A stretch of DNA of 64,000 nt from Terriglobia bacterium (lineage in GTDB: Bacteria; Acidobacteriota; Terriglobia; Terriglobales; Acidobacteriaceae), in NCBI GenBank assembly GCA_963832635.1, contig CAWHVH010000014.1, forward strand, positions 51,397-115,396. Direction: 5' to 3'. Below are positions 50,400-64,000 of the stretch, piece by piece. The notes below the pieces were generated by a model. The model was not told the origin of the DNA. It ran no database searches and saw only the letters and a program-made list of their open reading frames with translations. Position 1 is the stretch's first letter. Each line of letters begins with the position of its first letter. A program made the translations under genes and the position numbers.

Positions 50400-51152
50400 A
50401 TGGCGACCTTATCCCCGACAGTTTCGATCAAGGATTTGAAGACCGGCCAGGGTGGCCGCGGCGTCGAGCCGCCCGTCCCTGGCGGTGGCGGCGGCGACCC
50501 CTCTGGAAGTAACGGCTCTCCCAACTACGGAGAACGCCTGCGCCGGGTCCGGCTGGGCATGATCATCGGACTTACTTCCATCACCATGGTCTTCGTCTCG
50601 CTGACCAGCGCCCTGGTGGTGCGCCGCGGACTTCCCACCTTTGACGATCAGACCAGCAGCTACGTGCGCGACTGGCTGCAGGTAAGCCTTCCCTTCACGC
50701 TGTTGCTGATCAACACCATTGTTCTCTTAGTCAGCAGCGTAACCATGGAACTCGCGCGGCGGCAGATTACACGGCAAGCGGCACTCGCGCCGGTTCGTTC
50801 GATCCCTGGCGTTTCGATCGGCGAGGAGCGCACCTTCCCCTGGCTTGCGATCACGGCGGTTCTCGGGACCGGATTCCTGGTGGGGCAGTGGATGGCGTGG
50901 CGCGAACTGGCCGACCGCGGATTCTACCTTTCAACCAGTGCCAGTAGTTCGTTCGTTTATTTGCTGACCGGAGTGCATGCGGTTCACCTCATCGGCGGCG
51001 TGTTGGCCTTGCTCTACGCCGCGGCCGCGACCATGTTGTTCCATAAGCCGGTCGAGGCGCGCCGCATTGTGGTCGATGCCACCGCGTGGTATTGGCACTT
51101 CCTCGCGTTCTTGTGGATTTACATTTTTGCCCTGCTTGAGATTGCACGCTAG
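50400..51152 (+). CDS. ctaE: Cytochrome c oxidase subunit III family protein
   Basis: TM pattern and the C-terminal WYWHFLAFLWIYIF motif. Confidence 0.78.
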   Translation: MATLSPTVSIKDLKTGQGGRGVEPPVPGGGGGDPSGSNGSPNYGERLRRVRLGMIIGLTSITMVFVSLTSALVVRRGLPTFDDQTSSYVRDWLQVSLPFTLLLINTIVLLVSSVTMELARRQITRQAALAPVRSIPGVSIGEERTFPWLAITAVLGTGFLVGQWMAWRELADRGFYLSTSASSSFVYLLTGVHAVHLIGGVLALLYAAAATMLFHKPVEARRIVVDATAWYWHFLAFLWIYIFALLEIAR

Positions 51153-51173
51153 CTTAACGAGGAGACCGAACTC

Positions 51174-51932
51174 ATGTCCGATGTCGCGGTGCAACACGGG
51201 TTGGCGGATGTCTACGAGCCATCGCTGTTCGGCACCTACTCAAAAAAGATCGGGATGTGGCTCTTTCTGCTCTCCGATACCCTGACCTTCGGGGCGCTGC
51301 TATTCGCCTACAGTTACGGCCGCATTTCCAATCCCGACTGGCCGACTCCCTTCGGGAAAGAAAGCATCATCAATGCCACGGTGATGACCGGGTGCCTGCT
51401 CTCGAGTTCTCTGACCATGGTGCTCGCCGTACTCGCAGCCCGGCGCGGAGATCGCCCCTGGACGCGCAATTGGATTCTGTTCACCATGCTCTTCGGCTCG
51501 GCTTTCATCGTGTTGCACGGCATGGAATGGACCAAGCTGATCGGCGAGGGCATGACTCCCTTCAAGAACCCCTGGGCCGCCACCGTCCCGCAATTCGGCG
51601 GCACCTTCTTCACCCTCACGGGCATGCACATGCTGCACGTCACCATCGGGGTGATTTACCTGGGCGTCGTTGCACTGCGCAAGTGGTTCCTGCCGATCCT
51701 GCTCGCTCTGTGGCTGATCATCTGGCTGGCAACTCCCGCTGATAATGTCTTCCACTTCGGAGTGCATGCCCTGCTGATCGGCGCGATTATCGCGGCCGTA
51801 ATCCTGTTTCTCAAACCAAAAGACTACGACGCCCACGACGTCGAGATTGCCGGCTTGTACTGGCACTTCGTGGACCTGGTCTGGATGTTCATCTTCCCGC
51901 TGGTGTATCTGATGTCTACCAAAGTTGTGTAG
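51174..51932 (+). CDS. Second cytochrome c oxidase subunit III family protein
   Basis: FFTLTGMHMLHV and LYWHFVDLVWMFIF motifs. Confidence 0.7.
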   Translation: MSDVAVQHGLADVYEPSLFGTYSKKIGMWLFLLSDTLTFGALLFAYSYGRISNPDWPTPFGKESIINATVMTGCLLSSSLTMVLAVLAARRGDRPWTRNWILFTMLFGSAFIVLHGMEWTKLIGEGMTPFKNPWAATVPQFGGTFFTLTGMHMLHVTIGVIYLGVVALRKWFLPILLALWLIIWLATPADNVFHFGVHALLIGAIIAAVILFLKPKDYDAHDVEIAGLYWHFVDLVWMFIFPLVYLMSTKVV

Positions 51933-51959
51933 CTGGGATCTTGCGTCACGGGAGACGAT

Positions 51960-52271
51960 ATGCACGACGTTGCGATTACGCACGATGAAGGCAAAGGCCA
52001 GTATCTGTGGGTCTGGGGCGCGCTGCTCCTGTTGACTGCGCTGGAAGTCGGCCTGGCTTATAACCAGGTGTTTGAGCCGCTTCACATGTTGGAAGCGCTC
52101 ATGATCCTTTCCATCATCAAGTCGGCGCTGATCATCGGTTGGTTCATGCACTTGAAGTATGAGATCGCGGTCATGAAATGGGTTATGATGGTCGCCGTTT
52201 GCCTTTGCCTCTGTCTCATGTGTGTCTTCTTCGCCGACGCAGATCGCATTCTCCACTTGGGAGTGAAATGA
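51960..52271 (+). CDS. Prokaryotic cytochrome c oxidase subunit IV family protein
   Basis: 103 aa, three TM helices, IIKSALIIGWFMHLKYE motif. Confidence 0.6.
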   Translation: MHDVAITHDEGKGQYLWVWGALLLLTALEVGLAYNQVFEPLHMLEALMILSIIKSALIIGWFMHLKYEIAVMKWVMMVAVCLCLCLMCVFFADADRILHLGVK

Positions 52272-52617: not shown

Positions 52618-55587
52618 ATGTCGACGGAAACCATAGTTGTTCGCGGCGCGCGGGTCCACAACCTCAAAAACATTGATTTTGAAATCCCGCATAATTCGCT
52701 GACGGTTGTCACCGGGGTCTCCGGATCCGGCAAGTCGTCCCTCGCCTTCGATACCATCTACGCCGAAGGCCAGCGCCGCTACGTAGAGTCCCTCTCCGCC
52801 TACGCCCGGCAGTTCCTGGAGCGCATCGAAAAGCCGGATGCCGATGTCATCGATGGCATCGCCCCGGCAGTTGCGATCCGCCAGAAGAATACGACCCGGA
52901 ATCCCCGCTCGACGGTCGCGACGGCCACCGAGATTTACGACTACCTGCGGCTGCTCTTTGCTCGCGTGGGACGAACCTATTGTCTGCGGTGTGGAAACGA
53001 AGTCAAGAAGGACACCGTGGATGAAGTCACCGAGCGCATGCTGGCATTGGGTGAAGGCACGCGCTTGAACGTTTTTTTCCCCCTGCAAGGCTCGACGCCG
53101 CCTGCGGCTACGGCCAAAAAAAAGAAGGCAAGGAAAACCGGCGCCAGTGCCGCGGCGGCAACCGCACGGGCCATGCGTGCGCGCCCCACTGGAATCGATA
53201 CCGCCGACGACTTGCTCAAGACGCGTCTGTTTGACTTGCGCACCCGCGGCTTCAACCGGCTGTATCAAGACGGGCGCATCTTCGAGTTTTCGACACCCGA
53301 ATCCCTGCTGGATGTGAACTTTGCCGAGCCGGTGTCCGTCCTTGTGGATCGTCTCGTGATCTCGCCCGACGTGCGCCCGCGCGTCGTCGATGCCATCGAG
53401 ATCGGCTATCGCGAGGCCGGAGAGGTGATCTTCGAAACGGTTCCCCGGGACGACGCCCCTGCGCAGCGCCTCCGCTTCTCGCAACGCTTTGAGTGCAAGA
53501 ACTGCGGCATCCGTTACGAAGAACCTGAACCTCATCTGTTCTCGTTCAACAATCCCTATGGCGCGTGCCCGCGTTGCCAGGGGTTTGGGAACACCATCGA
53601 CTTCGATCTCGATCTGGTGATTCCTGACAAATCGAAGACGTTGAACGAAGGGGCAATCGAGCCATGGACGAAGCCCAAATACCGCCCTCTATTCACCGAA
53701 CTCAAACGCTTTGCCCGGCAGGCGGAGATTCCGCTGGATGTTCCCTGGGCGGAACTGGAGTCCGAGCACCGGCAACTAATCATTGAGGGCGAAGGGCGAT
53801 TCGGCGGAGTTCGAGGCTTCTTTAAGCATCTGGAGCGCAAGAAATACAAGCTGCACGTGCGCGTCTTTCTCAGCCGCTACCGCGGATACTCTCTCTGTTC
53901 CACCTGTGGCGGCGCCCGCTTGCGGCCGGAGGCACAACAGGTGAAGATCGATGGCAAAAACATCTGTGAAATTACCGGCATGACGGTCGAGGAGGCCTCC
54001 CGGTTCTTTGCCCAGGTGAAGCTCACCGAACAGCAGGCGGCCATCGCCGAGAAACTACTGGTCGAAATTCAGGAGCGCCTGCGTTTTCTGAACGAAGTCG
54101 GCCTGGAGTACCTCACCCTCGACCGCCTTTCCTCCACACTCTCCGGAGGAGAAGCGCAGCGCATCCAGCTGGCAACGTCTCTGGGATCGCGTCTGGTGGG
54201 GACGCTGTATGTCCTCGACGAGCCCTCAATTGGCCTGCACGCCCGCGATACCCATCGCCTGATCAAGATCCTCCACAACTTGCGTGATCTGGGAAACACG
54301 ATCCTCGTCGTCGAACACGATCCCGACGTGATGCGCGCATCCGACCGCATCCTCGATCTCGGACCTGGAGCTGGTGAGAACGGTGGGAAGGTGATTGCCA
54401 CCGGCACCTACGAAGGCATCAAGCATAACCCAGCTTCGCTGACCGGCCGCTATCTCTCCCAGGAGCTGCGGATCCAACTCCCGAATGCCCGGCGTCCGCG
54501 CGGCTCGCAGGAGATCAAAATCTTCGGCGCACGCGCCCACAACCTCAAGCATCTGGACTTATCGATTCCCCTCGGAATGATCGTGGCCATCACCGGCGTA
54601 TCCGGCTCGGGCAAATCGTCTCTGGTCCACGATGTGATTTATCAGGCATTGAGCGCCGCGAAACGTCAGAGCAACGGCACCGCGCCCCCTGCTCCCCACT
54701 GGGACCGCATCGAAGGAGCGGACTACATCGACGACGTGGTGCTGGTCGACCAGTCCCCGATCGGCCGAACGCCCCGTTCGAACCCCGTCACCTACATCAA
54801 AGCCTTCGATGGGATCCGCGACCTCTTCGCTTCCCTGCCCGAATCGCACAAACGCGGCTTCTCCGCCGGACATTTCTCCTTCAATATTCCCGGCGGCCGC
54901 TGCGAAACCTGCCAGGGCGACGGCACGGTCACGGTCGAAATGCAGTTCCTGGCCGATGTGGAACTGATTTGCGAGGAGTGCAAAGGCACCCGCTACAAGC
55001 CGCAGGTGCTGGAGGTCCGGTTCCACGGCAAGAACATTCACGAAGTGTTGAATCTTACCGTCAAAGAGGCGCTGCACTTCTTCGCCGGAGTGCCCAAGAT
55101 CGTCGACAAGCTGAGAGTGTTGGAGGAAGTCGGCCTGGGCTACCTGCGGCTGGGGCAATCCGCGACCACGCTCTCGGGCGGTGAAGCTCAGCGCATGAAA
55201 CTCGCTGCCCATCTCCAGCCGGCCTCCCGCGATATCGGTCGGCCCTCGCATTCCCCGGGAGAGGCACGCCGCCGGATTCGTACCCTTTACATCTTCGATG
55301 AGCCCACCACCGGACTGCATTTCGACGACGTCAGCAAACTGCTCTACGCCTTCCGTCGCCTCATCGATGCCGGTGGCTCCATCCTCGTCATCGAGCATAA
55401 TCTGGAAGTGATCAAGACCGCCGACTGGGTCATTGACTTGGGCCCCGAAGGCGGGGACAAGGGCGGCTACATGGTCGGCCAGGGCACTCCGGAAGCCATC
55501 GCGAAGCTGCCCAATTCCTACACTGGAAAATTTCTGGGGCATCTTCTGAACGGAAACGGGTCGTCGCGCAGCAATGGCCGCAAATAA
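52618..55587 (+). CDS. uvrA: Excinuclease ABC subunit A
   Basis: Two ABC ATPase modules (GVSGSGKSS twice, LSGGEAQR twice) and zinc-finger cysteines ([16 protein letters not shown]). Confidence 0.95.
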
Positions 55588-56891
55588 GCATCTCGTGGGC
55601 ATCGTGATTCTTGGCCTCGGCGTGGCCGCAGCCCAGGCGCAATACTCCGGCCAGACCGTCCGCCACCACAAGATCGCCACAGTCGACTCGTCGCAACCTC
55701 CTGAACTGACCGCAGCCGAAGCTTCCATCGAAAAAAAAGATTACCCCGCGGCGGAACCGCTGTTAAAGAAAGTCGTAGCTGCGGATCCCACGAACTACGC
55801 CGCCTGGTTCGATCTCGGATTCATCTACAACGCGCTCGGCCACTCCGACGAATCGATTGCGGCTTATCGCAAGTCCGTCGCGGCTAAGCCCGATGTCTTC
55901 GAGTCCAACCTGAACCTGGGATTGATGCTGGCCCGCGCTAACCAGCCCGACGCCGAGCAGTTTCTGCGAGCGGCCACCAAGCTGACGCCTACCGCCAATG
56001 TAAATGATGGGCAAGCCCGCGCATGGGTGTCGCTGGCCCACGTGCTCGCTCCCTCGAAACCGGATGAAGCCATCCAGGCCTATCGTCAAGCCGCCGTGCT
56101 TCAGCCCAAAGATCCCGAGCCGCACCTGGCATGCGGTCTTCTGTTCGAAAAACAGAATCAGTTCGCGGACGCCACCGAAGAATACAAAGCAGGCCCTCGC
56201 GCTCGATCCCGATTCCAGCGATGCTCTCACCGGCTTGGCCAATATCTACACCCGCGGGCAACGCTTCTCCGACGCCGAGGGAGTCCTGCGCCAGCTCGTG
56301 GCTCTGCATCCGGAGGATGCCGGGGCCCACATGCAGTTGGGACGCATGCTGGCAGCCGCGGGCAACAACGATGCCGCTATCGCCGAACTGCAAACCGCGG
56401 TCAAGTTGGCTCCGAGCGACGCCGGCGCGCAGCGCGACCTTGCCGACCTCTACGCCAACACTAAGAAGTTTGACCTGGCGGTAGGCCGGTATCGAGCCCT
56501 CCTCACCGCCAACCCCAAGGACGCGGAGTTGCATCAGAGGCTCGGCAATGCCTTCCTGGAACTGAGGAAGTTCCCCGAGGCGCAACAGGAATTCTGGATT
56601 GCGGTGCATCTCAAGCCGGATTTCGGCTTGGCCTGGGGCCAGTTGGCGGTGGCCGCCGATGAAAATAAGAACTACCCCCTGGCCATCCTGGCCCTCGATA
56701 CCCGGGCTAAGTACTTGCCGGAAATGCCGGTTGGCTATTTTCTTCGCGCTACGGCGTATGACCACTTGCGCGATTACCAGAAAGCGTCAGAGAATTACCA
56801 TCGGTTTCTTGAGGTCGCGAATGGGCAGTTTCCCGACCAGGAGTGGCAGGCACGCCATCGCCTGATCGCGATTGAGCCCAAGAAAAAGTGA
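55574..56891 (+). pseudogene. Secreted TPR-repeat protein, frame broken by an apparent 1-nt insertion
   Basis: ORFs 55574..56464 and 56004..56891 both encode TPR repeats. They join at ..ATEEYK / QALALDPDSS.. at the A3 run at 56186-56188. Confidence 0.62.
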
Positions 56892-56898
56892 AGCCACG

Positions 56899-57339
56899 AT
56901 GCGCCGGACGGCCATCATCTTCGTGCCTGTGATTCTGACACTGCTCGCAGCGTCCGCAGCGAAAGACGAGTCTGTGCCCGAGTTGGTCGCCCGCGCCGAA
57001 ACCGCCCGCCTGCAGGACCGCCCAAAGCTCTACACCGAAATCGCCGAGCGCGAACTCGAGGCCGCCGACCAGTTCTATAACCAAGGCAAAGTCAATCAGG
57101 CGCAAGCGGCTGTGAGTGATGTCGTGAGCTATTCCGATAAGGCTTCCGACGCCGCGTCGAAGACAGGGAAGAAACTCAAGAACACTGAAATCGCCGTGCG
57201 CAAGATGGCGGAGAAGCTTCGCGATATCAAGCGCAGCCTCGCTTTCGAGGATCAGGCTCCGGTACAAACCGCCATTGAGCACATGGAAAACCTGCGCACC
57301 AAACTGCTAAACCGGATGTTTGGCATAGGTGCCAGATGA
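56899..57339 (+). CDS. Hypothetical secreted helical protein
   Basis: Signal peptide (MRRTAIIFVPVILTLLAASAA). No family recognised. Confidence 0.45.
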   Translation: MRRTAIIFVPVILTLLAASAAKDESVPELVARAETARLQDRPKLYTEIAERELEAADQFYNQGKVNQAQAAVSDVVSYSDKASDAASKTGKKLKNTEIAVRKMAEKLRDIKRSLAFEDQAPVQTAIEHMENLRTKLLNRMFGIGAR

Positions 57340-57875
57340 CCGCTTCGTGGAAGGGCGCTCTTGCCTGCGTGTTCTTCTTGGTGTCCCTTTGGCCGTCAAC
57401 TGCGCAAGCACGCCACGACCCCTTGACCCCCATCGAAATCGATCAACTGCGTGACGCCGCGCAAGATCCGGGACAAAGGTTAAAGTTGCTCATTACCTTC
57501 GCCCGGGCTCGCCTGGACGCCGTTGAGAAAGCGCACGCCGACCCCAAGGCAACCGCTCGCGGCCAGCAGACCCACGACCGGCTGCAGGATTTCCTCGATG
57601 TCTACGACGAACTGGACGACAACATCGACATGTTCACCGATCGCAGCGCCGATCTCCGCAAGCCTCTCAAAAATATTCTCGAAGCCGACACCGAGTTTCA
57701 GGCCAAGCTTCGTGCGCTCAAGCAGTCGGCTACTGCAACCCCCGAGGAATTCACTCAGTACGAACTCCTGCTGGCTAACGTGCTCGACACTCTCGACGAC
57801 AGCAGCCAGGACCACCGCCAGTTACTGACCGAACAGGAAGAAGCTGCCAAGCATAAGAAGCCGTCCAAACCTTGA
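57336..57875 (+). CDS. Hypothetical secreted helical protein
   Basis: Signal peptide. Overlaps the upstream stop (ATGA). No family recognised. Confidence 0.45.
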   Translation: MTASWKGALACVFFLVSLWPSTAQARHDPLTPIEIDQLRDAAQDPGQRLKLLITFARARLDAVEKAHADPKATARGQQTHDRLQDFLDVYDELDDNIDMFTDRSADLRKPLKNILEADTEFQAKLRALKQSATATPEEFTQYELLLANVLDTLDDSSQDHRQLLTEQEEAAKHKKPSKP

Positions 57876-57921
57876 TCCCCTTTGCGGCAAGCGATGAGTC
57901 TCGTGCTAATCTAGCCCCAAG

Positions 57922-58608
57922 GTGAGCGACAGGCTTCTTCAATTCTTCCACGAAAGCTATCGTGAACTGCGCCCGCACGCGCCCATCCCTGAGTTGACCG
58001 TGGAATTCTTCGCCTTCGCCAACCTGAACAACACCATTCGCCTGCGCGAGGGCAAACTGCTGGTGCGCCTTTCCGATCTACTGGAAGGCGCTCCGGAACC
58101 GGTGCTGCGCTCCATCGCCCACATCCTCCTGGCCAAGATGTATCGCAAACCGGTCGAGCGCAGCCACTCCACGCGCTATCGCCGCTATGTCTCTGGCCAC
58201 GATATCGTGGCGAAGGCGCATTTGGTCCGGCAGCTGCGCGGGCGCAAACGGATCGCCTCCGCCCGCGGCAGGACTTACGACCTGGAACAAGTTTTTGAAG
58301 AATTAAACCGGCGTTTTTTCCACGGCCTGCTCGCCCGCCCGCAGATGAGCTGGAGCCGCGACCATGCACGCAACAGTCTCGGGCACTACGATCCCGCGCA
58401 CAACGCCATTGTGGTCAGCCGGGTATTCGACCATCCCCGGGTTCCCCGCTGCGCCGTCGAGTACATCGTCTACCACGAGATGCTGCACCTGAAGCATCCG
58501 GTGAAATTGCGCGGCAGCCGCCGCTGCGTGCACTCCGCCGAGTTCCAGGCAGAGGAGAAAATGTTTCCCGAGCTCGAGCCCGCCAAGCGCTTCCTGCGGC
58601 AACTCTAA
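57922..58608 (+). CDS. Zinc metallopeptidase-like protein (YgjP/DUF45 or SprT-like, HExxH)
   Basis: HEMLH motif (YIVYHEMLHLKHP) followed by HSAEF. GTG start. Confidence 0.55.
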   Translation: MSDRLLQFFHESYRELRPHAPIPELTVEFFAFANLNNTIRLREGKLLVRLSDLLEGAPEPVLRSIAHILLAKMYRKPVERSHSTRYRRYVSGHDIVAKAHLVRQLRGRKRIASARGRTYDLEQVFEELNRRFFHGLLARPQMSWSRDHARNSLGHYDPAHNAIVVSRVFDHPRVPRCAVEYIVYHEMLHLKHPVKLRGSRRCVHSAEFQAEEKMFPELEPAKRFLRQL

Positions 58609-58717
58609 CCGCCGCAACTCGCGGTTCAACCCCTCCAGAACCCCGTGTGATGCAAATCACGTTCAGTTGTGACGCTGTGCGTTGACGCTGGCGGCGCGGG
58701 AAGACTATCCTATATAG

Positions 58718-58746
58718 TTGAAATTGAAATTCATTTTCAAAATCAT
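58718..58746. promoter_or_regulatory. AT-rich Fur-box-like hexamer array / palindrome upstream of the FTR1 operon
   Basis: TTGAAA TTGAAA TTCAT TTTCAA AATCAT. TTGAAA-5 nt-TTTCAA is a perfect inverted repeat. Read as GAAATT GAAATT CATTTT C, it matches about 14 of 19 positions of the classic Fur box GATAATGATAATCATTATC. It lies 18 nt upstream of the ATG. Confidence 0.45.
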
Positions 58747-58763
58747 AGAGGGCCGTTCCTGAC

Positions 58764-60011
58764 ATGCTGGAAGCATTCATTATCACCTTGCGCGAGGGAG
58801 TCGAGGCCGCCCTCATCGTAGGTATCACCCTGGCTTACCTGGCCAAGATCAACCGCCCCGACCTTAGAAAGTCGGTCTACTCCGCCCTGGTCGCCGCCTT
58901 TCTCGGTAGCATCGGCGTTGCCATCCTGCTCTCCCGCACCCAGTGGAATCAGGACATTTTCGAGGGTTGGGTCATGCTGGCGGCCGCCTTCTTCGTGGTC
59001 ACCATGATCATCTTCATGATGAAGACCGGCCGCAGGCTCAAGGGCCAGATTGAGGGAAAAATTGGCCTCCTGGCGGGCGAGGACGCCTGGTTCGGCCTCT
59101 TCCTTTTCGTCTTCCTCATGGTCCTGCGCGAAGGCGTCGAAACCGTCCTGATCCTGGGAGCGGTCTCCCTGAACTCCACCGAACTGCTCAGCTTCATGGG
59201 CACCCTGCTGGGCGTTCTGGTTGCGATTCTGTTCGGGGTGATGTTCGTCAAGGGCAGCGTCCGTATCAATCTCCAAAAGTTCTTCCGGGTGACCACGGTG
59301 ATTCTGTTCTTTGTCGCGGCCCAGTTGGTCATTTCCGGCCTGCACGAACTTTCGGAAAATGGAGTGCTTCCCTCCTCCAAGCGCGAAATGGCCCTCATCG
59401 GACCCATTGTGCGCAACGAATCGTTTTTCCTGGTGACGATCCTGGCCCTCGCCGCCCTGATGGTTCTGTTTGAAGTGAAACGCCGCCAGCCCACGGCCCT
59501 GCCCGAGTCTCCTGCGGAGCGCCGCAAAGCCTTGTGGAGCGCCCGCCGCGAACGTTTCTGGATGGCCTCGGTTTACGCCTCCTCGTTCCTGTTCATCGTA
59601 ATGGTCACGGCGGAGTTCATTTACGCCAAAAGCGTCAGCGCCCTCTCGCCCGCGACCGAAGTCAGCTTCGTCAATGGCGTGGTCACCATTCCCCTCAGCA
59701 AGGTTTCCGATGGCGACCTGCACCGCTACCAGGCCAATGAGAACGGAACGGAAGTCCGCTTCTGGCTCTACCGAAAGCCCGACGGTAAGGTCGCAACCGT
59801 CTTCGACGCCTGCGAGATCTGCGGCGCCGTGGGTTTCTACAAGGGACCGGAAGGAATTGTCTGCAAGAACTGTGCTGCACCCATCAACGGGCAGTCCGTC
59901 GGCATGCCCGGAGGCTGTAACCCCATCCCCCTTGCATCGCAAGCGACCTCGGATGCGGTGATCATCAAGGAGGCGGACATCGCGGCTCGCGCCAAAATGT
60001 TCCAGCAATAA
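58764..60011 (+). CDS. FTR1-family iron permease fused to a DUF2318-like Cys-rich domain
   Basis: Two REGxE motifs (TLREGVEAAL, VLREGVETVL) lie in the membrane domain. The C-terminal roughly 130 aa carry CEICGAVGFY...CKNCAAPING, typical of DUF2318-type proteins. Confidence 0.72.
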   Translation: MLEAFIITLREGVEAALIVGITLAYLAKINRPDLRKSVYSALVAAFLGSIGVAILLSRTQWNQDIFEGWVMLAAAFFVVTMIIFMMKTGRRLKGQIEGKIGLLAGEDAWFGLFLFVFLMVLREGVETVLILGAVSLNSTELLSFMGTLLGVLVAILFGVMFVKGSVRINLQKFFRVTTVILFFVAAQLVISGLHELSENGVLPSSKREMALIGPIVRNESFFLVTILALAALMVLFEVKRRQPTALPESPAERRKALWSARRERFWMASVYASSFLFIVMVTAEFIYAKSVSALSPATEVSFVNGVVTIPLSKVSDGDLHRYQANENGTEVRFWLYRKPDGKVATVFDACEICGAVGFYKGPEGIVCKNCAAPINGQSVGMPGGCNPIPLASQATSDAVIIKEADIAARAKMFQQ

Positions 60012-60014
60012 TCC

Positions 60015-61271
60015 ATGTTTGTTCGCCTCGTCTATGAATCCTTCCGGCGGCAAAAACGTCGCAAATTACTAGCCGGCATCGCCATTACCCTGGGCGTTGG
60101 TGTGGCCACGGCCATGATTGCGGTGGCTACCGACATCGGCGACAAGATCAACCGCGAACTCCGCAGCTACGGGGCGAACCTCGTCGTCACTCCGCAGGAA
60201 GACACGCTCGACTTGCAAATCGGCGGGGTGGACCTCAAGCCGCCCAGCGACGGCGCATACCTGAACGAAGCCGACCTGCCCAAGATTCGCGGTACATTCT
60301 GGCGGCACAACATCATCGGCTTTTCCCCGATGCTGCCCGTGAATGTAACCCTCGCCCCCGGTCAGCAGGTCACCCTGCTCGGAACCTACTTCTCCAAGCA
60401 ACTCAAATTCGGCACCGATGAATTCACCACTGGCGTGCGGATCACTCACCCCTGGTGGAAGGTGCAGGGTGCGTGGCCGCTCGATAGCTCACAAGATGTT
60501 CTTCTGGGTGAGCGGCTGGCCGCGAAACTGGACGAAAAGCCGGGAGACTCGATTGAGATTTCCGGGCAGGCGCACAACATCGCCGGCATTCTTTCCACGG
60601 GTGGAGCTGAAGACGATCAGGTAGTAGCTCCACTGTCCTTGGCGCAGCAGATTCTTGGCAAGCCCGGCGCGGTGCGGCGGATTTACGTCAGCGCGCTCAC
60701 CAAGCCCGAAGACGCCCTGGCAAAGCGCGATCCCAAGTCGATGAACCCCGAGCTCTTCGACCGCTGGTACTGCTCTCCTTACGTGCAATCCATCGCCTAC
60801 CAGTTGCAGGAAGCGATCCCGCATTCCCACGCCGAGCAGATTCGTCAGGTGGCGCAAAACGAAGGCACGGTTCTGTCGCGCATCAAAGGCCTGATGCTGC
60901 TGGTCACGCTGGCCGCGCTCCTTGCCTCGGCCCTCGCGGTCTCGGCGGCCATGGCCACCGCTATTTTCGAGCGCCGGAGCGAGGTAGGGCTCATGAAAGC
61001 CTTGGGCGCCGGCAATGCTTCGGTAGCCGCTCTTTTCTTCACCGAGGCTGTACTCCTGGCTTTAATTGGCGGCACCGCAGGATTCGCCGGCGGAGCCTAT
61101 CTGGCGCGGCAAATTGGACGCTCCATCTTCAACTCGCAGATCACCATCGATCCCGTGCTCTTCCCCATCATTCTCGCGATTGCCGTGATCGTAACCTTTG
61201 CCGGAAGCGCTGCTGCTATCCGCCGCGCGGTGAATTTCGATCCCGTGCATGCGCTCAAGGGGGAGGCATGA
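60015..61271 (+). CDS. ABC transporter permease, FtsX/MacB type
   Basis: N-terminal TM helix, large periplasmic domain, C-terminal FtsX 4-TM module (ERRSEVGLMKALGA). Confidence 0.8.
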   Translation: MFVRLVYESFRRQKRRKLLAGIAITLGVGVATAMIAVATDIGDKINRELRSYGANLVVTPQEDTLDLQIGGVDLKPPSDGAYLNEADLPKIRGTFWRHNIIGFSPMLPVNVTLAPGQQVTLLGTYFSKQLKFGTDEFTTGVRITHPWWKVQGAWPLDSSQDVLLGERLAAKLDEKPGDSIEISGQAHNIAGILSTGGAEDDQVVAPLSLAQQILGKPGAVRRIYVSALTKPEDALAKRDPKSMNPELFDRWYCSPYVQSIAYQLQEAIPHSHAEQIRQVAQNEGTVLSRIKGLMLLVTLAALLASALAVSAAMATAIFERRSEVGLMKALGAGNASVAALFFTEAVLLALIGGTAGFAGGAYLARQIGRSIFNSQITIDPVLFPIILAIAVIVTFAGSAAAIRRAVNFDPVHALKGEA

Positions 61272-62426
61272 GTTCGCACCCCTCGCAACTCGCGCAGGAA
61301 GTTGCGGCCCGCCGCGCCCAGGCTCCGCACACCTCAATGTTCCTTCGCATGCTGATGCGGGCCGCGGTTCTGCGCCGCGGGCGCGCCGCCTCTGCCCTGC
61401 TCGCCATGGTGGTGGCCGCAGCGGTAGCCACAGCGATGCTCAATCTCTACGTCGATGTGCAGGCCAAGTTGCGCAAGGAATTCCGCAATTACGGCGCGAA
61501 CGTCGTGGTCGTCGCAAAAGACGGGCAATCTCTGCCTGCCAATGCGCTTACGACGGTGGAATCGACACTCTGCCGGGCGCGGCCTTGCAGTACCCTTTGC
61601 CTACGTGGTCGCCCGCACCAGCGATGGCCAATCCGTCGTCGTCTCAGGAACCGACTTCGACCAGGTCAAGAAACTCGATAGCTGGTGGGCCGTCACCAAC
61701 TGGCCCGCCACATCGGAAGACGCGCTCGTCGGAGTTCGCGCCGCCGCCGTCGTCAGTCCGCAAGGCAAGCCCTTCGATCTCAGTTTCCAGGGACGTACCC
61801 TCCACCTCAATTCCGCCGGCGCCTTACGTACGGGTGCCGCCGAAGACAGTCGCGTCTATCTCCGCCTCGCCGATTTCGAAACCTGGACCGGAGTTCAGCC
61901 TTCGACCATTGAGATTGCCGCTTCCGGTTCACCGGACGAGATCGCTGCGATCATGAAGCAGCTGACCAGTGCTCTGCCGGAAACCGAGGTTCGCCCGGTG
62001 CGCCAGATCATGGAAGGCGAAGCTCGCGTGCTGGGCAAGACGCGCGCAACCTTACTGGCGGCCGCAATACTCATCATCCTGACTTCCGCTTTATGTGTCC
62101 TCTCCACCCTGATGGGATGGGTCTTTGACCGGCGCCGCGATTTTGCCATCATGAAGGCGTTGGGAGCCTCGGAACGCCTCATCAACGGCTTCTTTGCTGC
62201 CGAAGCGGCCGCCCTTGGCGTAGTAGGAGCCGTCGTGGGTTTCGCCATCGGAGTCGGGGTAGCGGCCTGGATCGGGCGGGTTAATTTCAACGCTCCCGTC
62301 GTGCCTCGCTTCAGTATCCTGCCCGCAATTGTGCTCGGGAGCATCGCCGTGGCTCTGCTGTCCTCGGTCTTGCCGATTTTCCTGCTGCGACGCGTCGAAC
62401 CAGCTATGATTTTGAGGGGAGAATGA
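61268..62426 (+). pseudogene. Second FtsX/MacB-type ABC permease, frame broken by an apparent 1-nt insertion
   Basis: ORFs 61268..61681 and 61455..62426 overlap in different frames and together give a MacB-like permease (DRRRDFAIMKALGA). A candidate insertion site is the G3 run at 61575-61577. The true start may be Met 61337 (MFLRML, parallel to MFVRLV of the first permease). Confidence 0.68.
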
Positions 62427-62445
62427 GGGTGTCCCAGACAACGCG

Positions 62446-63669
62446 ATGATCAAACTCAAGAATGTGAGCCGTCTCTATCCCGCACGGGCCGAACAAAACG
62501 GCGGCACCATTCGCGCCCTCGACAATTTCACTCTCACTGTCGATCCCGGCGAATGGGTCGCCATCATGGGCCCTTCTGGCTCCGGCAAATCGACCCTGGT
62601 GAATTTGATCGGTTGCCTTGATCGCCCCACCTCGGGCGAGATCTGGCTCGACAACCAGAACGTTGCCAACATTTCCCCCGCCGATCTCAACCGCGTGCGC
62701 GCCGAAAAAATCGGCTTCGTCTTCCAGCAGTTTCACCTCATCCCTTATCTCACCGCGCTCGAAAACGTCATGCTCGCCCAGTATTTTCACAGCATGACCG
62801 ACGAGCAGGAAGCGCTCGAAGCGCTCGAGCGCGTTGGCCTGAAAGAGCGCGCCCATCACGTTCCTTCGCAGCTTTCCGGTGGCGAGCAGCAAAGAGTCTG
62901 CATCGCCCGCGCCCTCATCAACGATCCCAAGATTGTTCTGGCCGACGAACCAACGGGCAATCTTGACGCGCAGAACGAAGAGATCGTACTGCGCCTGCTG
63001 CGCGAACTCCACCAGCAGGGACGCACCATCGTGATGGTCACTCACGACCCCGTCGTAGCCCGCCTCGCCGACCGCCGTATCGAGCTTCACCACGGCAAGA
63101 TCGCAGCCCAGGAACTTTTCTCCATGGCAGACGAAGAGCAGTTCGACGAGGTCCTCGAAGAGCTGTGGGCGCTGGCCGAGAACCACCAACCGGCTGAAAT
63201 CGGCCTAATGGAAGTGCATGGCGCACTTCCGGTGAGTATTGCTGTAGAAAAAATGGTGGAACTCGGACTGGTCGCGACTACGCCGCATCCACCCGAAAAC
63301 CACGAGCACAAGCCCTTTGTGAATCCCTGTCACGACGCGCTCAAGCCCACCGGCGTCTCTGTCGGCGATGGCAGCCTGATTGTCGAACTGACCCAGCGAG
63401 GCCGCCAGCGCGCCGCCGACATCATTCGCCGCCATCGCCTGGCCGAGCGCCTGTTCACCGACAGCCTTGCCCTCGACAGCGAGTCCGAGATCGAGCAGCA
63501 AGCCTGCAAGTTCGAACACATCCTTTCGCACGAAGCGACCGACAAAATCTGCACCTTCCTGGGACACCCTCGCACTTGTCCCCACGGCGCGCCGATTCCT
63601 CCGGGACCGTGTTGCGGGAGAGAATCGAAGAACGAACCGCTGGATGCGGTCGCGGCGCGAAGAGTCTAG
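62446..63669 (+). CDS. ABC transporter ATP-binding protein (MacB/LolD type) fused to a DtxR/IdeR-like metal-dependent regulator domain
   Basis: Residues 1-225: Walker [10 protein letters not shown], signature LSGGEQQRV, Walker [12 protein letters not shown]-loop VTHD. Residues 227-407: [18 protein letters not shown] and [14 protein letters not shown], colinear with the DtxR dimerisation/metal-binding domain. Confidence 0.8.
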
Positions 63670-63678
63670 ACCCGCCCG

Positions 63679-64000
63679 TCAAGCAAACGGATTCTGAATG
63701 CGCAGTCCTTCGACCTTGCGCCCGTGCTGCAGGTCTTCGCTGTATAGAATTTCGCATTGGCTGGCGCTGGCCGCCGCTACAATCAAGGCGTCATACCACG
63801 ACATGCCGTGTTTTCCCGACAACGTCAACGCTTCCAGATAGAGGGCCGGTGAAGAGTGAACCGCCAGCAACGGCCGGAACACCGTTGCCAGATACTGTTC
63901 CGCTTCCGCTACCGACATAGGCTGCACAAAACGCTTCAGCGCAACGTTGAAAAATTCCTGAACCACCTGATAGCTGATAAGGCCCCGGCGGGTCGCCAGG
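63679..64000 (-). CDS. PIN-domain (VapC-like) toxin, N-terminus outside the window
   Basis: The frame stays open to the window edge. The C-terminal PIN pattern (SWYDALIVAAA ... LYSEDLQHG) is present. Confidence 0.6.
   Translation of the reverse strand, partial: LATRRGLISYQVVQEFFNVALKRFVQPMSVAEAEQYLATVFRPLLAVHSSPALYLEALTLSGKHGMSWYDALIVAAASASQCEILYSEDLQHGRKVEGLRIQNPFA

What the first reader, a model, noticed from the sequence alone, without database searches (positions are those of the whole stretch)
58764..62426. Compact P19-less FTR1 operon: FTR1::DUF2318 fusion plus two FtsX-type permeases
The gene order is FTR1-DUF2318 fusion, FtsX permease, FtsX permease, ABC ATPase. Spacings are tight (4-nt gap, ATGA overlap, 19-nt gap). 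As far as I recall, this parallels the accessory genes of the Campylobacter Ftr1-P19 iron-uptake cluster: Ftr1, P19, a DUF2318 membrane protein, two FtsX-like permeases, an ABC ATPase and thioredoxins. Here the permease and the DUF2318 module are one polypeptide, and no P19/FetP-type periplasmic copper protein or thioredoxin is encoded in the operon. The role of a MacB-like tripartite-type ABC module next to an FTR1 channel is not understood in any system. This minimal fused version could help define the core machinery.
Basis: partly seen in the sequence, partly recalled or inferred. Interest (0 to 1): 0.65.

Follow-up and report, generated by a model that had tools for sequence, protein, structure and literature searches.

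The report
Compact Fet-type iron uptake operon
A four-gene operon of a soil acidobacterium is a stripped-down relative of the Campylobacter/E. coli FetMP-FetABCDEF iron-uptake system: one protein carries both the iron channel and the cysteine-rich outer domain, and the ATP motor carries its own metal-sensor domain, so it could help work out how this poorly understood system functions.

Summary
They are an FTR1 permease fused to an FtrD-like (formerly DUF2318) domain, two FtsX-type permeases and an ABC ATPase, tightly packed, with no P19 or thioredoxin gene.

Three corrections:
- The second FtsX gene is broken in this sequence by one extra base at 61571. This is probably a long-read assembly error.
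- The first gap is 3 nt, not 4.

The fused protein is not an artefact. The same four-gene operon occurs in 80 of 80 Terriglobia species genomes examined, and none has P19 or a thioredoxin within 7 kb. FtsX1, FtsX2 and the ATPase are specific orthologues of E. coli FetB, FetC and FetD.

New reading: FetA proteins of classical FetM-P19 clusters are full-length homologues of this protein that have lost the REXXE iron-channel motifs. So this is probably a FetA that still works as the permease, not a FetM-FetA fusion.

A 19-bp Fur-box-like palindrome lies upstream in 68 of 79 species. The periplasmic domain models as a Rieske-like, all-cysteine fold.

Verdict: a real, conserved new variant of a known system. 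It is named in databases but I found no description in the literature. Its function is inferred, not tested.

The parts
58646..58660 (+). CRP/FNR-like inverted repeat TGTGATGCAAATCAC upstream of the promoter-like site
   Evidence: Read directly. It is conserved in close relatives, including one with only 78% overall DNA identity. TGTGA-N6-TCAC is present upstream in 46 of 79 Terriglobia species. Its function was not tested.
58682..58711 (+). Sigma-70-like promoter candidate (TTGACG, 18 nt, TATCCT)
   Evidence: Consensus scan, 9 of 12 matches. It lies in a block that is identical in six related loci. This is a consensus match only.
58720..58738 (+). 19-bp AT-rich palindrome GAAATTGAAATTCATTTTC with Fur-box geometry (9-1-9); candidate operator
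   Evidence: It matches 14 of 19 positions of the E. coli Fur consensus. That is the best match in the 64-kb window, against 0.27 expected at this level in shuffles. It is present at 17 of 19 or better, 38-56 nt before the start codon, in 68 of 79 species, and is exact in 55. The best match in coding DNA is 13 or lower. It occurs nowhere else in the loci.
58764..60011 (+). FetA-type protein: FTR1 permease (7 TM, REGVE at aa 10-14 and 122-126), an eighth TM helix, and a periplasmic FtrD-like (DUF2318) domain with 5 Cys (C350, C353, C367, C370, C385)
   Evidence: Pfam hits. The REXXE residues and the Cys are invariant in 79-80 of 80 species. The AlphaFold model has pLDDT 84.5, with 8 long helices and a beta domain. 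The domain model has pLDDT 95.4, and about 47 of the top 50 fold matches are Rieske domains. A soil metatranscriptome contig is identical at 58950-59100.
60015..61271 (+). FtsX-type permease 1 (MacB_PCD + FtsX), orthologue of FetB/FlsA
   Evidence: Pfam hits. It is 40% identical over its full length to E. coli FetB (E 8e-101), against 28% to FetC.
61268..62426 (+). FtsX-type permease 2, orthologue of FetC/FlsB, interrupted in this sequence by a 1-nt insertion at about 61571
   Evidence: Two ORFs lie in different frames. The 385-aa gene is intact in L002, L003, L004 and L006. The alignment shows CTCTGCC in the window against CT-GGCC in relatives. Short-read contigs of 3 runs lack base 61571. 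The protein is 31% identical to E. coli FetC.
62446..63120 (+). ABC ATPase (nucleotide-binding domain), orthologue of FetD/FlsC
   Evidence: Pfam ABC_tran, E 2.9e-38. It is 60% identical to E. coli FetD. A metatranscriptome contig is identical at 62436-62647.
63121..63669 (+). C-terminal extension of the ATPase: DtxR/IdeR-type metal-binding and dimerisation domain, with a His/Cys-rich insert
   Evidence: Pfam Fe_dep_repr_C, E 4.8e-26. It aligns to residues 48-151 of solved DtxR/IdeR structures, E 7e-17. The ligand equivalents H79, E83, C102, E105 and H106 are invariant in 73 of 73 species, with Glu in place of H98. No DNA-binding domain is detected even at E up to 10.

Best explanation
This is an iron-regulated, four-gene, Fet-type iron-uptake operon (fetA*-fetB-fetC-fetD*) of a Terriglobia soil bacterium.

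Shown:
- The first protein is a FetA-family membrane protein. Its seven-helix N-terminal part is a bona fide FTR1 permease with both REXXE motifs.
- An eighth helix carries a Rieske-like, five-cysteine FtrD-like domain. By the published FTR1 topology, that domain faces the periplasm.
- The next three genes are orthologues of FetB, FetC and FetD, a heterodimeric FtsX-type (type VII) ABC system.
- The ATPase has a DtxR/IdeR-type metal-binding domain fused to its C-terminus.
- A conserved Fur-box-like palindrome overlaps the promoter region.

Inferred:
- Under low iron the operator is released and the operon is transcribed.
- Iron crosses the inner membrane through the REXXE channel of the fused protein.
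- The tethered cysteine centre does the periplasmic metal handling or redox step. In other FTR1 systems this falls to a separate partner (P19/FetP, EfeO/EfeB, Fet3).
- The FetBCD-type module does not carry iron itself. It uses cytoplasmic ATP to do conformational work on the periplasmic side, as MacB, LolCDE and FtsEX do.
- When cytoplasmic Fe2+ rises, it binds the DtxR-type domains and throttles the ATPase. This would be trans-inhibition, as methionine does in MetNI and molybdate in ModBC.
- The frameshift in fetC is most likely a sequencing error.
For: Domains:
- Pfam hits for all four proteins.
- The family Cys motif matches the published one.

Orthology:
- FetB 40%, FetC 31% and FetD 60% identity, each the reciprocal best match.

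Conservation:
- The operon order is the same in 80 of 80 species.
- The DtxR-type tail is present in all 74 loci where the DNA extends far enough.
- The REXXE residues, the five Cys and the DtxR ligands are invariant.

Complementary distribution:
- Three REXXE-less homologues (P0256, P0231, P0263) sit directly after P19. Two of them also follow a gene with a recorded FTR1 hit; in L090 the gene before P19 is cut by the contig end and has no Pfam record.
- REXXE-intact homologues head clusters without FetM or P19: the Terriglobia operon and P0203 in L089.

Homology of the N-terminal halves alone:
- REXXE-intact against REXXE-less group: 99.9% probability, E 7e-32.
- REXXE-intact group against the FetM FTR1 domain: 99.6%.
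- REXXE-less group against the FetM FTR1 domain: 93.9%.

Operator:
- The 19-bp box is present in 68 of 79 species and is the best Fur-consensus match in the window.

Genetics in relatives:
- fetA, fetB, fetC and fetD are each needed for growth of C. jejuni at low iron (PMC10783030).
- Deleting fetMP-flsDA lowers cellular iron about five-fold in Salmonella (PMC7285068).

Expression:
- Two metatranscriptome contigs are 100% identical to the window.

Sensor domain:
- The Cys at the position of DtxR C102 is typical of Fe-responsive rather than Mn-responsive family members. This rests on my own knowledge of DtxR and MntR.
Against: - No experiment exists for any member of this REXXE-intact subfamily.
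- The Fur assignment rests on a 14 of 19 match, and the binding protein is unknown.
- P19, a thioredoxin or an outer-membrane receptor could be encoded elsewhere in the genome. Only 7 kb on each side was checked.
- A periplasmic domain at the end of a Sec-inserted polytopic protein is an awkward place for an Fe-S cluster. The nature of the Cys centre (cluster, single metal ion or disulfides) is therefore open.
- The fold match to Rieske domains has weak E-values (0.06-0.3).
- The direction of regulation by the DtxR-type domain (inhibition or activation) is a guess.
- The complementary-distribution argument rests on few independent lineages.
- In this very sequence fetC is out of frame.
Confidence: 0.6

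Rival explanations
1. The operon is a decaying remnant in this strain. The 1-nt insertion at 61571 is real, FtsX2/FetC is a pseudogene, and the system is non-functional here. In C. jejuni both permeases are required.
For: - The same extra base is present in a second, independent assembly (L001, 98% DNA identity over 13 kb).
- It is not in a homopolymer run.
- C. jejuni needs both fetB and fetC (PMC10783030).
Against: - The three short-read loci compared at this site (L003, L004, L006), L002, and short-read contigs of three further runs lack the base and have an intact 385-aa gene.
- The window has another private frameshift, in a TPR gene. L001 has uncompensated indels that split UvrA.
- In the 80-species survey, interrupted operon genes occur only in 'contig_'-named MFD assemblies, which I take to be long-read: 9 of 168 gene copies, against 0 of 139 in other assemblies.
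- The rest of the gene is 97% identical in protein to L003 and has no further damage.
Confidence: 0.3
2. The FetBCD-type ABC module is a true exporter. It would send a reductant, thiol or chelator to the periplasm to feed the cysteine domain, as CydDC does. The 2023 C. jejuni model proposes something similar, with reducing power sourced from FetBCD. It would not be a mechanotransducer.
For: - This is the published working model for C. jejuni (PMC10783030, read).
- The periplasmic domain has two CxxC pairs that could cycle between dithiol and disulfide.
- In this operon the thioredoxins are missing, so another source of redox equivalents would be needed.
Against: - FtsX/MacB-type permeases characterised so far work by periplasmic mechanotransmission or by extraction from the membrane. 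They do not carry substrates across the inner membrane. This is established knowledge of the type VII ABC family (reviewed in PMC8277102) and was not tested here.
- No substrate is known.
Confidence: 0.2
3. The system handles a different metal (Mn, Zn, Cu or Pb), or works in efflux or detoxification rather than iron uptake. In that case the DtxR-type domain would switch the pump on when metal is in excess.
For: - The FTR1/ILT superfamily includes a lead-uptake branch (PbrT; my own knowledge).
- Other DtxR-family members sense Mn (ScaR and SloR appear among the hits).
- MacB-type systems are usually exporters.
- The authors of the Salmonella study leave transport of other metals open (PMC7285068).
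Against: - Both REXXE motifs typical of iron-transporting FTR1 proteins are invariant.
- The closest studied relatives affect iron, not Mn or Zn, content (PMC7285068).
- The operator has Fur-box geometry.
- The sensor domain keeps the Cys that marks Fe-responsive DtxR/IdeR proteins (selectivity rule from my own knowledge).
Confidence: 0.1
4. The FTR1::FtrD-like single polypeptide is an assembly or gene-calling artefact that joins two neighbouring genes.
For: The window has at least two frameshift-type errors.
Against: - The 415-aa protein recurs at 84-100% identity in over a hundred listed clusters from independent sources. These include short-read JGI and Logan contigs.
- Full-length homologues go down to 25-30% identity.
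- An eighth transmembrane helix links the two parts in a confident model.
Confidence: 0.01

Closest known systems
FetMP-FetABCDEF of Campylobacter jejuni (cj1658-1665; PMC6083913, PMC10783030). Equivalent to FetMP-Fls of Salmonella and E. coli plasmids (PMC7285068; locus L007) and Fet-Flp of Yersinia.
   Same: - FetA-type membrane protein with eight TM helices and the CxxC-x13-CxxC-x14-C domain.
- Two different FtsX-type permeases and one ATPase, in the same order. These are specific orthologues at 40%, 31% and 60% identity.
- An upstream Fur-type box.
   Different: - No separate FetM permease, no P19/FetP, and no thioredoxin or FMN protein.
- The FetA homologue keeps both REXXE motifs and lacks the C-terminal YHS domain.
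- The ATPase has an extra DtxR-type domain. E. coli FetD is 231 aa without it.
FTR1/EfeU-type permeases with periplasmic partners (yeast Ftr1-Fet3, EfeUOB, FtrABCD of Brucella and Bordetella)
   Same: - Seven-helix permease with two REXXE motifs.
- Best NCBIfam similarity is to EfeU (E 1.9e-46, below the family cut-off).
   Different: - No multicopper oxidase, EfeO/EfeB, cupredoxin or P19 partner gene is present.
- Instead a Cys-rich domain is tethered to the permease, and an ABC motor is co-encoded.
Type VII ABC systems (MacB, LolCDE, FtsEX)
   Same: - FtsX transmembrane domain plus a MacB-type periplasmic core domain.
- LolD/MacB/FtsE-like ATPase.
   Different: - No adaptor or outer-membrane partner gene.
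- The ATPase is a separate polypeptide, as in LolCDE, not fused as in MacB.
- The permease is a heterodimer.
- All scores are far below each named family's cut-off.
DtxR/IdeR iron-dependent repressors
   Same: - Metal-binding and dimerisation domain, with ligand positions 79, 83, 102, 105 and 106 conserved.
   Different: - No detectable DNA-binding domain and no SH3-like third domain.
- Attached to an ABC ATPase rather than free-standing.
- H98 is replaced by Glu.
ABC importers with regulatory C-terminal domains on the ATPase (MetNI, ModBC, MalK). This comparison comes from my own knowledge.
   Same: - A ligand-binding domain is fused to the C-terminus of the nucleotide-binding domain.
- It is positioned to dimerise under the motor.
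   Different: - A different fold and ligand: a DtxR-type metal site rather than ACT-like or TOBE domains.
- Regulation here is only inferred.

Membership tests
Fet system (FetMP-FetABCDEF / FetMP-Fls) | DUF2318/FtrD-like membrane protein with the motif CxxC-x13-CxxC-x14/15-C | tested here: met
   PF10080, E 3.9e-29. The sequence reads CEIC-x13-CKNC-x14-C. The Cys are invariant in 79-80 of 80 species. The motif is as published.
Fet system (FetMP-FetABCDEF / FetMP-Fls) | Two distinct FtsX-type permeases and an ABC ATPase orthologous to FetB, FetC and FetD, directly downstream | tested here: met
   Reciprocal best matches at 40%, 31% and 60% identity. The order is conserved in 80 of 80 species. 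FetC is frameshifted in this sequence.
Fet system (FetMP-FetABCDEF / FetMP-Fls) | Separate FetM permease and periplasmic P19/FetP protein | tested here: not met
   E. coli FetP finds no match in the window or within 7 kb in any of 80 species. The only FTR1 match is the fused protein itself. The rest of the genome could not be searched.
Fet system (FetMP-FetABCDEF / FetMP-Fls) | Thioredoxin-like or FMN-binding redox partner in the cluster | tested here: not met
   No TlpA match. The neighbours are a SprT-like gene and a PIN gene.
Fet system (FetMP-FetABCDEF / FetMP-Fls) | Iron-limited, Fur-dependent expression and a contribution to iron uptake | tested here: inconclusive
   A conserved Fur-box-like palindrome is present. 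Transcripts exist. Regulation and uptake themselves cannot be tested with these tools.
FTR1 / oxidase-dependent iron transporter family | Seven transmembrane helices with REXXE motifs in helices 1 and 4 | tested here: met
   PF03239, E 2.6e-38. REGVE occurs at aa 10-14 and 122-126 and is invariant. The helices appear in the model.
FTR1 / oxidase-dependent iron transporter family | Dedicated periplasmic or extracellular oxidase or metal-binding partner | tested here: not met
   No such gene is in the operon or its flanks. The tethered FtrD-like domain may take over this role, but that is an inference.
MacB-type tripartite efflux pump | Adaptor (membrane-fusion) protein and outer-membrane factor, with the ATPase fused to the permease | tested here: not met
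   The operon has four genes only and the ATPase is a separate polypeptide. Similarity to MacB is far below its family cut-off.
DtxR/IdeR metalloregulators | Metal-binding and dimerisation domain with conserved ligands | tested here: met
   PF02742, E 4.8e-26. Aligned to solved DtxR/IdeR structures. The ligands are invariant in 73 of 73 species.
DtxR/IdeR metalloregulators | N-terminal winged-helix DNA-binding domain | tested here: not met
   No Pfam match even at E up to 10. Only a by-eye resemblance remains ([14 protein letters not shown] against DtxR VSQTVARMERDGLV).
Rieske [2Fe-2S] domain | Rieske fold with CxH and CxxH cluster ligands | tested here: inconclusive
   About 47 of the top 50 fold matches are Rieske domains, with TM-score about 0.5 and probability up to 0.97, but E-values of only 0.06-0.3. 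The ligands are all Cys, not Cys2His2.

The most novel reading that the evidence does not exclude
The whole DUF2318/FetA/FlsD family descends from FTR1 permeases. In classical FetMP clusters FetA would be a dead 'pseudo-permease' working beside FetM-P19. The Terriglobia protein would be the living self-sufficient form: channel, periplasmic Rieske-like cysteine centre and type VII ABC motor make up the complete core machine. In addition, the DtxR-type domain on the ATPase would be a direct cytoplasmic iron sensor that switches the motor off. I know of no other metalloregulator domain controlling an ABC motor post-translationally.
Probability: 0.3. Interest if true: 0.75.

Novelty: new variant of a known kind. 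Interest (0 to 1): 0.55.

Why it matters
The Fet/Fls system contributes to low-iron growth in Campylobacter and Salmonella; homologous clusters occur in E. coli and Yersinia. Nobody knows yet what FetA or the FetBCD ABC module do (PMC10783030, PMC7285068).

A natural version without FetM, P19 and the thioredoxins, conserved across at least 80 soil species, says which parts can stand alone. That gives three concrete, testable ideas:
- FetA is built on a permease fold, and in this lineage still has the iron-channel motifs.
- The cysteine domain is Rieske-like and is tethered to the permease, in a position to take over the role of P19.
- The motor is tied to iron status through its own sensor domain.

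It also describes an abundant iron-uptake route of Terriglobia, a dominant group of soil bacteria.

Tried and rejected
- **Assembly artefact for the fused protein.** Rejected.
- **Programmed +1 frameshift in FtsX2.** Rejected. Relatives simply lack the base, and there is no slippery site or stop context.
- **Direct check of the frameshift in reads.** No public run holds the 141-nt stretch around it. Runs found for the gene are only about 92% identical strains.
- **Sequence search of the fused protein against solved structures.** Nothing significant.
- **Fold search of the full-length model.** No significant match.
- **Riboswitch or other known RNA in 56000-64000.** None; one weak chance hit only.
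- **Further copies of the 19-bp box, to define a regulon.** None in the window or the loci beyond the one site.
- **Tat-type export of the periplasmic domain.** Only one Arg (R254) before helix 8 is invariant, and a twin-arginine pair is not conserved. Weak, so dropped.
- **DNA binding by the ATPase tail.** No DNA-binding domain detectable. Kept only as speculation.
- **Plasmid database as a source of diverse FetA sequences.** Almost all hits are identical E. coli copies.
- **First genome scan with the 21-sequence alignment.** Repeated with 7 sequences.
- **Direct homology of enterobacterial FetA N-termini to canonical FTR1.** Not significant (3% probability). The link holds only through the REXXE-less intermediate group (69.5%, E 4e-5).

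Full report
**What is in the sequence.** Four ORFs lie head to tail on the + strand.
- 58764-60011 encodes 415 aa. It matches Pfam FTR1 at aa 1-200 (E 2.6e-38) and FtrD-like PF10080, the former DUF2318, at aa 314-413 (E 3.9e-29).
- 60015-61271 encodes 418 aa with MacB_PCD and FtsX domains.
- A second FtsX gene starts at 61268.
- 62446-63669 encodes a 407-aa ABC ATPase.

The flanking genes are a SprT-like gene upstream and a convergent PIN-domain gene downstream. tblastn with E. coli FetP and TlpA finds no P19 and no thioredoxin in the whole window.

First, 61268-62426 is 1159 nt, so the second FtsX gene is not one ORF. Its N-terminal 102 codons and the remaining 284 lie in different frames, because of one extra base at about 61571.
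- A 98%-identical assembly (L001) shares the extra base.
- Three short-read loci (L003, L004, L006), L002, and short-read contigs of three other runs lack it and have an intact 385-aa gene.
- The window has a second, private frameshift in a TPR gene. L001 has uncompensated indels that split UvrA.
- Across 80 related genomes, interrupted operon genes occur only in 'contig_'-named MFD assemblies, which I take to be long-read. There are 9 interruptions in 168 gene copies there, against 0 in 139 in other assemblies.
- I therefore rate the frameshift as probably an assembly error, at about 65-70%. I could not check reads, because no public run holds that stretch.

Second, the ATPase has about 180 extra C-terminal residues containing a Fe_dep_repr_C domain (E 4.8e-26).
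- This tail aligns to residues 48-151 of solved DtxR/IdeR repressors (E 7e-17).
- The equivalents of metal ligands H79, E83, C102, E105 and H106 are invariant in 73 of 73 orthologues. Glu replaces H98.
- Ten further His/Cys residues are also invariant or nearly so.
- No DNA-binding domain is detectable.

**The fused protein is real and old.** The protein search returned thousands of homologues. The 120 listed are 414-416 aa, 84-100% identical, and carry the same two Pfam domains. They come from independent sources and are named 'FTR1 family protein', 'high-affinity iron transporter' or 'Fe-S-containing protein'. An exhaustive search of 50%-identity representatives found 265 clusters at E of 1e-30 or better, many covering the full length at 25-55% identity.

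A scan of one genome per species found 472 genomes with a relative. The best 80 are all Terriglobia metagenome-assembled genomes. In all 80 the order is fused protein, FtsX1, FtsX2, ATPase. All 74 whose DNA extends far enough have the DtxR-type tail. None has a P19 or TlpA match within 7 kb. Both REGxE motifs and the five cysteines are invariant.

**Relation to the known system.** The literature describes fetMP-fetABCDEF in C. jejuni. It consists of FetM (FTR1), FetP (P19), FetA (eight TM helices, DUF2318 and YHS domains), FetB and FetC (permeases), FetD (ATPase) and FetE and FetF (thioredoxins). It lies behind a Fur box.
- fetA, fetB, fetC and fetD are each needed at low iron, and the substrate of the ABC part is unknown (PMC6083913, PMC10783030).
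- The Salmonella and E. coli plasmid version is FetMP-Fls (PMC7285068). I fetched an E. coli copy as L007.
- The window proteins are specific orthologues: FtsX1 to FetB at 40% (E 8e-101), FtsX2 to FetC at 31% (E 9e-49), and the ATPase to FetD at 60%.
- The C-terminal domain has the published motif exactly (CEIC-x13-CKNC-x14-C).

**A revised history of the 'fusion'.** E. coli FetA aligns with the window protein only from the last helix onward. Its N-terminal membrane part has no Pfam hit. The window's N-terminal part aligns with FetM.

Among the full-length homologues, however, is a subgroup without REXXE motifs: P0231, P0249, P0253, P0256, P0263 and P0266.
- Comparing N-terminal halves alone, this subgroup is clearly homologous to the REXXE-intact group (99.9% probability, E 7e-32). 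It is also homologous to the FTR1 domain of FetM (93.9%).
- The three I looked up all sit directly after P19 and before FtsX, FtsX and ABC genes. For P0256 and P0231 an FTR1 gene precedes P19. In L090, which holds P0263, the gene before P19 is cut by the contig end and has no Pfam record. So they are genuine FetA proteins.
- A profile of enterobacterial FetA N-termini matches this subgroup collinearly. The match has 69.5% probability, E 4e-5 and 191 columns, with a shared LNT[ED]LLL[KN] motif. It does not match canonical FTR1 directly.
- REXXE-intact members head clusters that lack FetM and P19. These are the Terriglobia operon and a distant one behind an ArsR-type regulator (L089). A third, L092, has no upstream DNA, and a fourth, L093, has a different context.

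The simplest reading is that FetA proteins are built on an FTR1 fold. Where a separate FetM-P19 pair is present, the motifs have decayed. Where it is absent, they are kept. The sample of independent lineages is small, so I hold this at about 0.7 for the homology and lower for the functional inference.

**Structure.**
- The AlphaFold model of the whole protein is confident (pLDDT 84.5, pTM 0.76). It has eight long helices, the last spanning aa 250-292, followed by a beta-rich domain.
- With the established N-out, C-in topology of FTR1 proteins, the eighth helix puts the Cys domain in the periplasm. The C. jejuni papers state the same for FetA. The linker before it is rich in Arg and Lys.
- The isolated domain models at pLDDT 95.4.
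- About 47 of its top 50 fold matches in the PDB are Rieske [2Fe-2S] domains of Rieske oxygenases. TM-scores are about 0.5 and probabilities reach 0.97, but E-values are only 0.06-0.3.
- The ligands would be four Cys rather than Cys2His2.
- Whether the site holds a cluster, a single metal ion or redox-active disulfides cannot be decided here. Cluster insertion into a Sec-translocated periplasmic domain would be unusual.

**Regulation and expression.**
- The 155-nt upstream region holds a block that is identical even in a relative with 78% overall DNA identity.
- Within it lies GAAATTGAAATTCATTTTC (58720-58738), a 9-1-9 palindrome that matches 14 of 19 positions of the Fur consensus. It is the best match in the window, against 0.27 expected by chance.
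- It is present at 17 of 19 or better in 68 of 79 species, 38-56 nt before the start codon. Coding controls reach at most 13.
- A sigma-70-like promoter candidate (58682-58711) lies just upstream of it.
- A TGTGA-N6-TCAC repeat (58646-58660) occurs in 46 of 79 species.
- Two soil metatranscriptome contigs are 100% identical to 58950-59100 and 62436-62647. These show transcripts of the first and last genes. They do not span a junction, so co-transcription is still inferred from the spacing.

**How it most likely works (inference).**
1. Low iron releases the repressor.
2. The FTR1 module conducts iron across the inner membrane.
3. The tethered Cys centre performs the periplasmic binding or redox step that other FTR1 systems give to a separate partner.
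4. The FetB/FetC/FetD-type module belongs to the FtsX/MacB (type VII) class. Like other members, it would convert cytoplasmic ATP hydrolysis into periplasmic conformational work rather than carry iron.
5. The DtxR-type domains under the ATPase dimer bind Fe2+ when the cell is replete and restrain the motor. This would be analogous to the regulatory domains of MetN, ModC and MalK (my own knowledge).

**Rivals.** These are a real pseudogene in this strain, an exporter of reductant (the published C. jejuni model), a different metal or efflux, and an artefactual fusion (excluded).

**Novelty and verdict.** The components and the parent system are known, and databases already name the protein. In the held literature I found no description of any of the following:
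- the REXXE-intact FetA subfamily;
- its complementary distribution with FetM-P19;
- the Rieske-like fold;
- the DtxR-type domain on FetD.

It is a new variant of a known kind. It is well conserved and useful as a minimal model of an unsolved iron-uptake machine. No function has been tested.

Noticed in passing
window 55574-56891: A TPR-repeat gene is split into two overlapping ORFs (55574-56464 and 56004-56891) by a 1-nt insertion near 56186. This insertion is private to the window. The gene is one 438-aa ORF in L003 and 427 aa in L002. It adds to the evidence that the window comes from an indel-prone assembly.
   Followed up: partly
window 63679-63966 (- strand, runs on towards the window end); L001 12917-13547: A PIN-domain (VapC-like) gene converges on the end of the ATPase gene, only 9 nt away. 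In relatives a 72-aa gene, a likely antitoxin, lies next to it. This neighbour is conserved in L001-L004.
   Followed up: no
window 57922-58608: A SprT-like metalloprotease gene lies directly upstream of the operon. It is found within 7 kb in 69 of 80 Terriglobia species. This linkage to the iron operon is stable but unexplained.
   Followed up: no
window 58743-60053 (- strand): A 436-aa antisense ORF covers the whole fused gene. It has no start context or homology support. It looks like a shadow ORF typical of 60% G+C DNA.
   Followed up: no
window 63250-63330 (ATPase aa about 270-295): A His/Cys-rich insert ([19 protein letters not shown]) lies in what corresponds to the wing of the DtxR fold. 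Its His and Cys are invariant or nearly so (70-74 of 74 species). It may be an additional metal site.
   Followed up: partly
L088 5987-12432; L091 3985-10388; L090 1310-6309: Metagenomic FetM-P19-FetA-FetB-FetC-FetD clusters carry a short FetM (406-417 aa, against 628 aa in E. coli) and no thioredoxin gene directly after the ATPase. The 'seventh gene' of the published cluster is therefore not universal.
   Followed up: no
L089 488-850: A distant REXXE-intact fused homologue (P0203, 33% identity) is preceded by an ArsR-type (HTH_5) regulator gene. Its ATPase lacks the DtxR-type tail. Different lineages seem to have solved metal sensing in different ways.
   Followed up: no
window 50400-52271 and 52618-55587: Cytochrome oxidase subunit III/IV genes and a 989-aa UvrA-type gene lie upstream. 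Their order is the same in L001-L003, so the whole 13-kb neighbourhood is syntenic among close relatives.
   Followed up: no
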